Positions 8,124 to 8,154 of a stretch of 64,000 bases of DNA are shown here, piece by piece. Source of the DNA: Escherichia coli O127:H6 str. E2348/69 (lineage in GTDB: Bacteria; Pseudomonadota; Gammaproteobacteria; Enterobacterales; Enterobacteriaceae); NCBI RefSeq assembly GCF_000026545.1, contig NC_011601.1; one strand, written 5' to 3'. The notes below the pieces were generated by a model. That model was not told the origin of the DNA and ran no database searches. It saw only the letters and a program-made list of their open reading frames with translations. Both the position numbers and the translations under genes were made by a program. How positions within the stretch are numbered: the first letter of the stretch is position 1; every line of letters begins with the position of its first letter.

Positions 8124-8154
8124 AATTACTCTCGCCACGTTAACGAGAGTAATT
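8124..8154. terminator. 11-bp perfect stem-loop just downstream of gspM; possible operon terminator
   Basis: AATTACTCTCG (8124-8134) / CGAGAGTAATT (8144-8154) with a 9-nt loop; T-rich only on the plus-strand side, so orientation is ambiguous. Confidence 0.35.

What the first reader, a model, noticed from the sequence alone, without database searches (positions are those of the whole stretch)
8124..8154. 11-bp perfect stem-loop between the island junction and gspM
The hairpin sits 10 nt downstream of the gspM stop but is T-rich only on the opposite strand. It may terminate the long gsp operon without a U-tract (Rho-assisted), or act as a second insulator against transcription reading in from the island.
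Basis: seen in the sequence. Interest (0 to 1): 0.2.

Follow-up and report, generated by a model that had tools for sequence, protein, structure and literature searches.

The report
Conserved transcript-end hairpin between pheV and gspM
The 11-bp hairpin is real and conserved, but it is an ordinary transcript-end stem-loop of the E. coli core chromosome lying between the convergent pheV tRNA gene and the last gene of the type II secretion operon, not a feature of the island and not a new kind of element.

Summary
Observation confirmed. Window 8124-8154 is AATTACTCTCG / CCACGTTAA / CGAGAGTAATT, a perfect 11-bp inverted repeat. Six such hairpins occur in the window against 0.12 in shuffles.

The window is EPEC E2348/69. 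The hairpin belongs to the core pheV-yghD(gspM) convergent spacer, not to the island. K-12 has it unchanged. It is single-copy and present in 2,512 of 5,426 complete E. coli genomes, with 37 nt identical in 2,457 of them. All 38 metagenome matches are the same locus.

Strains with a kps capsule locus carry kps in place of the ~100-bp hairpin segment.

Only the + strand, antisense to gspM, has a U-tract (UUUUAUU). It scores as a borderline intrinsic terminator, and a strongly C-rich, G-poor stretch follows. Published K-12 data mark that stretch as a Rho-dependent region.

On the gspM-sense strand the hairpin is more stable (-15.4 kcal/mol) but has no U-tract and no Rho-loading-like sequence downstream. 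There it looks like a 3' protective stem-loop.

No mapped RNA 3' end supports either role. Within E. coli there is no covariation, and no homologue was recovered from another species.

Verdict: ordinary, low interest.

The parts
8124..8134 (.). Left arm of the hairpin (AATTACTCTCG)
   Evidence: Invariant in all sampled E. coli lineages. Truncated by IS679 in strain UMNF18.
8135..8143 (.). Loop: CCACGTTAA on the + strand. On the - strand, UUAACGUGG closes to a 3-nt loop through U.G, U.G and A-U pairs.
   Evidence: The only identified variant in the hairpin is C8138T, in 46 O111-type genomes. It falls in the triloop on the - strand.
8144..8154 (.). Right arm of the hairpin (CGAGAGTAATT)
8153..8165 (+). 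U-rich tail on the + strand (TTTTATTGATATT), overlapping the last two stem pairs
   Evidence: T-tail score 3.98 with a 9-bp stem, d = -8.5 (borderline). Positions 8155-8163 are invariant and 8164 is a common T/C polymorphism.
8155..8232 (+). C-rich, G-poor stretch resembling a rut site, on the + strand (antisense to the 3' end of gspM)
   Evidence: 30 C, 8 G and 19 YC dimers in 78 nt. It lies inside the K-12 Rho-dependent region reported at 3110486 (+).
8041..8079 (+). pheV intrinsic terminator (stem 8041-8067 plus T-tract), retained to the right of attR. In inverted orientation it has a partial U-tract (UUCUUUAG).
   Evidence: d = +5.7 on +, -6.4 on -. Identical position after intact pheV in K-12.
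8018..8032 (+). attR core: 15 nt identical to the 3' end of tRNA-Phe (CGAGTCCGGGCACCA). This is the true junction between island and core.
   Evidence: No intact tRNA gene in the window.
8080..8181 (.). About 100-bp spacer segment carrying the hairpin. Present only in kps-negative E. coli and replaced by the kps capsule cluster in kps+ strains.
8164..8715 (-). yghD/gspM, last gene of the T2SS-beta operon. 183 aa here and 178 aa in most E. coli.
   Evidence: 1-bp deletion near 8182.

Best explanation
The hairpin is an ordinary RNA-level transcript-end stem-loop of the core pheV-yghD convergent spacer. Its effect depends on which strand is transcribed.

Its only terminator-like architecture is on the + strand: a 9-11 bp stem followed by UUUUAUU. 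I infer that there it acts as a weak back-up intrinsic terminator or pause site. It would catch the small fraction of transcripts that read through the strong pheV terminator. In E2348/69 it would also catch transcripts coming out of the island and its terminal IS. RNA that escapes would be handed to Rho, which can load on the C-rich, G-poor sequence directly downstream. The net effect is to protect the 3' end of the gsp operon from antisense transcription.

On the gspM-sense strand the same sequence forms a more stable 14-bp hairpin without a U-tract. That hairpin cannot terminate transcription by itself. It would serve as a barrier to 3'-to-5' exonucleases for gsp mRNA that actually ends further downstream, at the inverted pheV terminator or by Rho.

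Shown: the structure, its conservation, its single-locus distribution, its strand asymmetry, and Rho sensitivity of the + strand region in K-12. Inferred: termination and stabilisation activity.
For: Structure and non-randomness.

Core-genome origin: identical hairpin in island-free K-12 between the pheV terminator and yghD.

Conservation: 2,512 of 5,426 genomes carry it, single copy, with 37 nt identical in 2,457. All 38 metagenome matches are the same locus.

The + strand U-tract gives a terminator score of d = -8.5, against -62.6 on the - strand. The adjacent bona fide pheV terminator scores +5.7.

The + strand tail nucleotides next to the stem (8155-8163) are invariant, with a common T/C polymorphism at 8164. 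The 24 nt on the other side of the stem (8100-8123) hold 6 of the common polymorphic sites.

A rut-like stretch lies immediately 3' on the + strand, with C/G = 3.75.

Adams et al. 2021 (PMC7815308): Rho region at 3110486 (+). Downstream/upstream reads were 50/4606 without bicyclomycin and 293/3667 with it. Rho score 7.36, p = 3.6e-54.

For the sense-strand role: stable U-less stem-loops at the ends of Rho-dependent or processed transcripts are the rule in E. coli (Dar & Sorek 2018). Non-homologous hairpins follow the gspM stop in kps+ strains, E. whittamii and E. albertii.
Against: No Term-seq 3' end was reported at or just after the hairpin on either strand in K-12; only 3110443 is listed there, and 3110486 is a Rho-region coordinate. 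The terminator score is below the classical threshold, the stem base is AU-rich and the loop is 9 nt, so the consensus scan did not call it.

The bicyclomycin effect cannot be resolved to upstream or downstream of the hairpin. It also shows that the hairpin alone does not stop + strand transcription.

There is no covariation, because the stem never varies. Depletion of polymorphism in the stem is not significant: about 2.1 sites expected in 22 nt, 0 seen, P about 0.12. The stretch 8079-8101 is equally invariant.

The gsp operon is truncated and not detectably expressed in K-12, so nothing is known about sense-strand 3' ends.
Confidence: 0.5

Rival explanations
1. The main role is on the gspM-sense strand. 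The hairpin defines and protects the 3' end of the long yghJ-pppA-yghG-gspC-M mRNA. RNA polymerase passes it and is released downstream by Rho or by the inverted pheV terminator. PNPase and RNase II then trim back to the stem. The + strand U-tract would be incidental.
For: It lies 9-24 nt after the operon's last stop codon. It is more stable on this strand because G.U pairs form only here: -15.4 against -12.0 kcal/mol. Three unrelated downstream configurations (kps-, kps+, E. albertii) all place a stable U-less hairpin 10-45 nt after the gspM stop. It matches the class described by Dar & Sorek 2018. The first 10 nt after the stem are C-rich (CCTCCAGCCC).
Against: The downstream sense-strand composition is not rut-like: C/G is 1.06 and then below 1. 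The sequence just 3' of the stem on this strand is the most polymorphic part of the spacer. An A-rich tract lies upstream of the stem, which Dar & Sorek say is not typical of Rho-dependent ends. Three extra loop pairs on one strand are expected by chance in roughly 5-10% of cases. No 3' end data exist.
Confidence: 0.28
2. There is no selected function. The palindrome is a neutral piece of a young, low-diversity spacer that is conserved only because E. coli lineages diverged recently.
For: The stem shows no compensatory change, and its invariance is not statistically distinguishable from the neighbouring invariant stretch 8079-8101. The segment is absent from about half of E. coli (kps+ strains), from the GTDB E. 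coli representative, from Escherichia sp. E1V33 and E. whittamii, and from E. albertii. The left arm is truncated by an IS in UMNF18. No mapped 3' end in K-12.
Against: An 11-bp perfect hairpin is about 50 times rarer in shuffled sequence than observed in the window. Its placement between two convergent 3' ends, with a U-tract on one side, is what transcript-end hairpins look like. Any transcript crossing it will fold it regardless of selection.
Confidence: 0.18
3. It is a DNA-level element: a binding site for a dimeric protein (11-N9-11 palindrome), or a recombination or insertion site involved in gain or loss of the kps cluster or the pheV island.
For: The dyad symmetry is perfect. The segment is the alternative to kps at this locus.
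Against: The kps junctions lie at about 8079/8080 and about 8182, which is 44 nt left and 28 nt right of the palindrome and not inside it. The island junction (attR) is at 8018-8032, 90 nt away. No half-sites or copies exist elsewhere in the kps flanks, on plasmids, in phages or in metagenomes. It lies between two gene 3' ends, where there is no promoter to regulate.
Confidence: 0.04

Closest known systems
Canonical intrinsic (Rho-independent) terminator, here a tandem back-up terminator behind the pheV tRNA terminator
   Same: On the + strand there is a stem-loop followed directly by UUUUAUU, with complementary A residues upstream. It sits 56 nt behind a strong terminator in a convergent spacer.
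   Different: The stem base is AU-rich, the loop is 9 nt and the energy is only about -10 to -12 kcal/mol. The classical score is below threshold (d = -8.5). No mapped 3' end. Rho is demonstrably needed downstream in K-12.
U-less 3' protective stem-loops of Rho-dependent transcripts (Dar & Sorek 2018, NAR 46:6797)
   Same: On the gspM-sense strand it is a stable hairpin shortly after the stop codon with no U-tract, and the first 10 nt downstream are C-rich.
   Different: It has an A-rich tract upstream. The wider downstream sequence has no excess of C over G. Neither Rho dependence nor exonuclease trimming has been measured for this transcript.
Bidirectional terminators between convergent genes
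   Same: A single hairpin lies in a convergent spacer where it is transcribed from both sides.
   Different: Bidirectional terminators carry an A-tract on one side and a U-tract on the other, so that both RNAs end in U-tracts. Here only the + strand RNA does. The neighbouring pheV terminator fits that description better.
REP/BIME and other repeated extragenic palindromes
   Same: It is an extragenic palindrome at the end of an operon that could stabilise upstream mRNA.
   Different: It is single-copy and unique to this locus, with no sequence similarity to the REP consensus and no Rfam match.

Membership tests
Intrinsic (Rho-independent) terminator, + strand | Stable, usually GC-rich stem-loop | tested here: met
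   11-bp perfect stem (5 G-C pairs), -12.0 kcal/mol, z = -6.5. The stem is weaker and the loop longer (9 nt) than is typical.
Intrinsic (Rho-independent) terminator, + strand | U-tract of about 7-8 nt immediately 3' of the stem, and a combined hairpin/tail score above threshold | tested here: inconclusive
   UUUUAUU follows a 9-bp version of the stem (T score 3.98). The d'Aubenton-Carafa score is d = -8.5, below 0. The control pheV terminator scores +5.7. The consensus scan did not call it because its loop limit is 8.
Intrinsic (Rho-independent) terminator, + strand | RNA 3' ends mapped in the U-tract, insensitive to Rho inhibition | tested here: not met
   The K-12 Term-seq tables of Adams et al. 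2021 list no 3' end at 3110565-3110580 (+), and the region is bicyclomycin-sensitive. This is weak negative evidence, because read-through flux is low (50 reads per 800 nt).
Intrinsic terminator, - strand (gsp sense) | U-tract 3' of the stem | tested here: not met
   The tail is CCUCCAGCCCUUAUA, with T score 0.34 and d = -62.6.
Rho-dependent transcript 3' protective stem-loop (Dar & Sorek class), - strand | Stable stem-loop without a U-tract just downstream of the coding region | tested here: met
   -15.4 kcal/mol 14-bp hairpin, 9 nt (E2348/69) or 24 nt (K-12 type) after the stop codon.
Rho-dependent transcript 3' protective stem-loop (Dar & Sorek class), - strand | Excess of C over G (rut) immediately downstream | tested here: not met
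   C/G = 1.06 in the first 78 nt and 0.67-0.86 in the next windows. Only the first 10 nt are C-rich.
Rho-dependent transcript 3' protective stem-loop (Dar & Sorek class), - strand | Steady-state 3' end at the stem base, with longer tails in pnp/rnb mutants or with bicyclomycin | not testable with these tools
   No dataset held covers gsp-expressing strains. K-12 shows no - strand 3' end here. The supplementary tables of Dar & Sorek are not held.
REP/BIME or other dispersed extragenic palindromes / MITEs | Many copies per genome sharing a consensus | tested here: not met
   Median of 1 place per genome. No other copy in the window. All metagenome matches are the same locus. No true plasmid or phage match.
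Any curated RNA family (Rfam 15) | Covariance-model match | tested here: not met
   No match overlapping 8100-8180, even at E <= 1.

The most novel reading that the evidence does not exclude
The hairpin is a selected 3'-UTR regulatory element of the T2SS-beta operon, present only in kps-negative E. coli. In this reading it would be a docking site for a 3'-end-binding RNA chaperone, or a structure that sets gsp mRNA stability. The kps+ allele would supply a different, non-homologous hairpin for the same purpose. That would be convergent maintenance of an operon-end structure across three unrelated downstream sequences.
Probability: 0.05. Interest if true: 0.35.

Novelty: new member of a known kind. 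Interest (0 to 1): 0.1.

Why it matters
It matters very little beyond annotation. It adds one unannotated transcript-end hairpin to the pheV-yghD spacer of E. coli (MG1655 3110534-3110564). It also clarifies that in EPEC E2348/69 two core-genome elements stand between the pheV island and the gsp operon: the retained pheV terminator and this hairpin. That is useful when interpreting antisense or read-through transcription into the T2SS-beta genes, or when engineering at the pheV integration hotspot. It opens no new question.

Tried and rejected
- Rfam search of 6000-10000 at E <= 1: nothing at the hairpin.
- tRNA scan: no intact tRNA in the window, only the attR remnant.
- Covariation: not possible. 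The stem is invariant in E. coli. No homologue was recovered from another species: the GspM-anchored genome-contig scan returned 4 loci, none carrying the segment.
- Nine genomes carry an unidentified single mismatch within 8122-8158.
- Derivation of the ~100-bp segment from kps flanks: short-word BLAST found nothing beyond chance.
- Mobile-element origin: the only 'plasmid' hit is a 4.8-Mb chromosome-sized record, and the only phage hit is at chance level (E = 0.3).
- Small ORF or promoter in the spacer: no canonical start codon after the GGAGG at 8119-8123, and no promoter-like site between 8068 and 8163.
- Term-seq supplements of Dar & Sorek 2018, Sy et al. 2020 and the 3'-UTR valve paper are not held. 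The TERMITe tables have no entry for this locus.
- Yang et al. 2007 on gsp-beta transcription is not in the library.
- The fluoroquinolone adaptive-evolution paper that mentions yghD is irrelevant to the hairpin.
- Terminal inverted repeats of the IS481-family element were not found.

Full report
**Observation**

Window 8124-8154 reads AATTACTCTCG-CCACGTTAA-CGAGAGTAATT, a perfect 11-bp inverted repeat around a 9-nt loop. As RNA the + strand folds to -12.0 kcal/mol (z = -6.5 against dinucleotide shuffles). The - strand folds to -15.4 kcal/mol (z = -6.2), because U.G, U.G and A-U pairs extend the stem to 14 bp around a triloop. Perfect hairpins with a stem of 11 bp or more and a loop of 3-12 nt number 6 in the window, against 0.12 on average in 60 shuffles. 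The feature is real and not a chance palindrome.

Only the + strand continues with a T-rich tail (TTTTATTGATATT). The - strand continues CCTCCAGCCC.

**Context**

The window is the chromosome of EPEC E2348/69 (100% match). From left to right the region contains:
- an IS481-family transposase gene (6913-7959, +);
- a 15-nt remnant of the 3' end of tRNA-Phe (8018-8032), which is the attR junction of a pheV-inserted island (no intact tRNA in the window);
- the pheV intrinsic terminator (8041-8067 plus its T-tract);
- the hairpin;
- yghD/gspM on the - strand (8164-8715; Pfam T2SSM, E = 3.5e-46).

Island-free K-12 has pheV, the same terminator, the identical hairpin and yghD in the same order. The hairpin is therefore core DNA of the convergent pheV-yghD spacer, not island or junction DNA. 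In MG1655 it lies at 3110534-3110564, and the curated record annotates nothing there.

The '10 nt after the stop' spacing is lineage-specific. E2348/69 and 13 other genomes carry a 1-bp deletion that extends yghD from 178 to 183 aa. In the other sampled lineages the stop is 15 nt further from the stem.

**Distribution**

The ~100-bp segment carrying the hairpin (about 8080-8181) is present, nearly always once, in 2,512 of 5,426 complete E. coli genomes. The 37 nt spanning the hairpin are identical in 2,457 of them. Forty-six carry one loop substitution (C8138T, O111 type). Nine carry a single mismatch that I could not identify. One strain (UMNF18) has an IS679 insertion that truncates the left arm.

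The remaining genomes mostly carry the group 2 capsule (kps) cluster between the pheV terminator and the yghD stop. Homology to kps-negative strains ends at about 8079 on the left and at the stop codon on the right. Nothing in the kps locus resembles the segment.

Among the four GspM-encoding loci recovered from species-representative genomes, none has the segment:
- The GTDB E. coli representative (strain E69) and E. whittamii share one non-homologous sequence after the yghD stop.
- Escherichia sp. E1V33 has the same kps-type sequence as BL21.
- E. albertii has an unrelated GC-rich hairpin.

A metagenome-wide scan for the exact stem with any loop returned 38 contigs, all of this same locus. 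Plasmid and phage collections hold no true relative, and Rfam has no match. It is a single-locus, E. coli-specific element, not a dispersed repeat.

**Constraint**

No compensatory change exists, so covariation cannot be tested. Common polymorphisms in the non-coding spacer cluster at 8102-8122, directly beside the left arm (6 sites in 24 nt). One lies at 8164 and one in the loop. About 2.1 sites would be expected in the 22 stem positions at the flank rate and none is seen (P about 0.12), and 8079-8101 is equally invariant. This is compatible with constraint but does not demonstrate it. The metagenome sequences cannot be used for this test, because they were selected by an exact stem match.

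**Strand-specific anatomy**

On the + strand, antisense to gspM:
- A 9-bp version of the stem is followed by UUUUAUU. The d'Aubenton-Carafa score is -8.5, just below threshold. The adjacent genuine pheV terminator scores +5.7 with the same code.
- The 78 nt that follow have 30 C and 8 G with 19 YC dimers, the composition of a Rho loading site.
- Adams et al. 2021 (eLife 10:e62438) list a Rho-dependent region on this strand at 3110486, just past the pheV terminator. Reads downstream/upstream were 50/4606 without bicyclomycin and 293/3667 with it. The Rho score was 7.36 and p = 3.6e-54.
- Transcripts that escape the pheV terminator are therefore rare and are finished off at least partly by Rho, within an 800-nt window that begins 48 nt before the hairpin.
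- Their Term-seq tables contain no 3' end at the hairpin on either strand.

On the - strand, the gspM sense strand:
- The hairpin is more stable but has no U-tract (d = -62.6).
- The downstream C/G ratio is about 1 or lower.
- The next structure, 56 nt on, is the pheV terminator read backwards, with a partial U-tract (UUCUUUAG; d = -6.4).
- The three unrelated sequences that follow the gspM stop in different Escherichia (kps-negative, kps-type, E. albertii) all place a stable U-less hairpin 10-45 nt after the stop.
- This fits the finding of Dar & Sorek 2018 that E. coli transcripts lacking intrinsic terminators end, at steady state, at stable U-less stem-loops that block PNPase and RNase II.

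**Interpretation**

The most economical reading is an ordinary transcript-end hairpin in a convergent spacer whose effect depends on the strand.

On the + strand I infer a weak back-up terminator or pause site behind the pheV terminator. Rho would finish the job on the C-rich RNA downstream. This would limit antisense transcription into the gsp operon. In E2348/69 that includes transcription from the island, whose terminal IS carries a strong outward promoter-like site at 7956-7985.

On the - strand I infer a 3' exonuclease barrier for gsp mRNA that terminates further downstream.

Both remain unproven, because no RNA 3' end has been mapped at the stem.

The alternatives are a purely sense-strand stabiliser, a neutral palindrome, and a DNA-level site. 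They are given probabilities of 0.28, 0.18 and 0.04. The DNA-level reading is disfavoured because the island and kps junctions lie 28-90 nt from the palindrome, not inside it.

**Novelty and verdict**

This particular hairpin is not annotated. It is a new member of a thoroughly known kind (terminator or 3'-end stem-loop), specific to one locus of kps-negative E. coli. Nothing about it would surprise a specialist. Interest 0.1.

Noticed in passing
window 7956-7985 (+): Near-consensus sigma-70 promoter-like site (TTGACA, 18-nt spacer, TATGAT; 11 of 12 matches). It overlaps the stop codon of the IS481-family transposase gene and points outward toward attR, the pheV terminator and the hairpin. It may be an outward-reading IS promoter. 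No terminal inverted repeats of the IS were detected in 6600-8040.
   Followed up: partly
window ~8182 (within yghD 3' end, - strand): A 1-bp deletion (CCCCG where most E. coli have CCCCCG) shifts the yghD/gspM stop 15 nt downstream, giving 183 aa instead of 178 aa. It is shared by strain RM14723; 14 genomes in all match E2348/69 exactly over 8085-8185. The C-terminus also differs in kps+ strains (192 aa in JJ1886), so the end of GspM is set by whatever sequence abuts it.
   Followed up: partly
window 8080-8181 versus L006 (BL21), L019 (JJ1886), L016, L017: The ~100-bp spacer segment and the ~16-kb kps group 2 capsule cluster are mutually exclusive occupants of the pheV-yghD interval. The breakpoints are sharp, at about 8079/8080 and at the yghD stop codon. 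The kps-type sequence also abuts yghD in Escherichia sp. E1V33, and a different non-homologous sequence does so in E. whittamii, so the short segment may be the derived state.
   Followed up: partly
L012 (E. coli UMNF18) 1380-1575: An IS66-family element (IS679) is inserted in the left arm of the hairpin, leaving only ACTCTCG of that arm. This is a natural stem-truncation mutant in a strain with an intact gspL-yghD.
   Followed up: no
K-12 MG1655 3111266-3111325 (+) and 3111489 (+); equivalent to the antisense of gspL in the window, about 8850-9100: K-12 carries an annotated 19-aa + strand gene, yqhJ, antisense to yghE (gspL remnant). Adams et al. 2021 list an 'orphan' + strand Term-seq 3' end at 3111489. 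Antisense transcripts therefore exist across the 3' part of the gsp cluster. Whether they start downstream of the hairpin or come from pheV read-through is unknown.
   Followed up: no
window 3804-3831, 25156-25194, 40240-40270, 49398-49428, 59552-59577: Five other perfect or near-perfect hairpins with 11-16 bp stems and short loops, likely terminators or similar elements. Not examined.
   Followed up: no
L018 (E. albertii NBRC 107761) ~3075-3100: Downstream of E. albertii gspM there is an unrelated 9-bp GC-rich hairpin (ACGCCAGCC/GGCTGGCGT). Its T-rich tail is also on the strand opposite to gspM, so the strand asymmetry seen in E. coli recurs with a different sequence.
   Followed up: no
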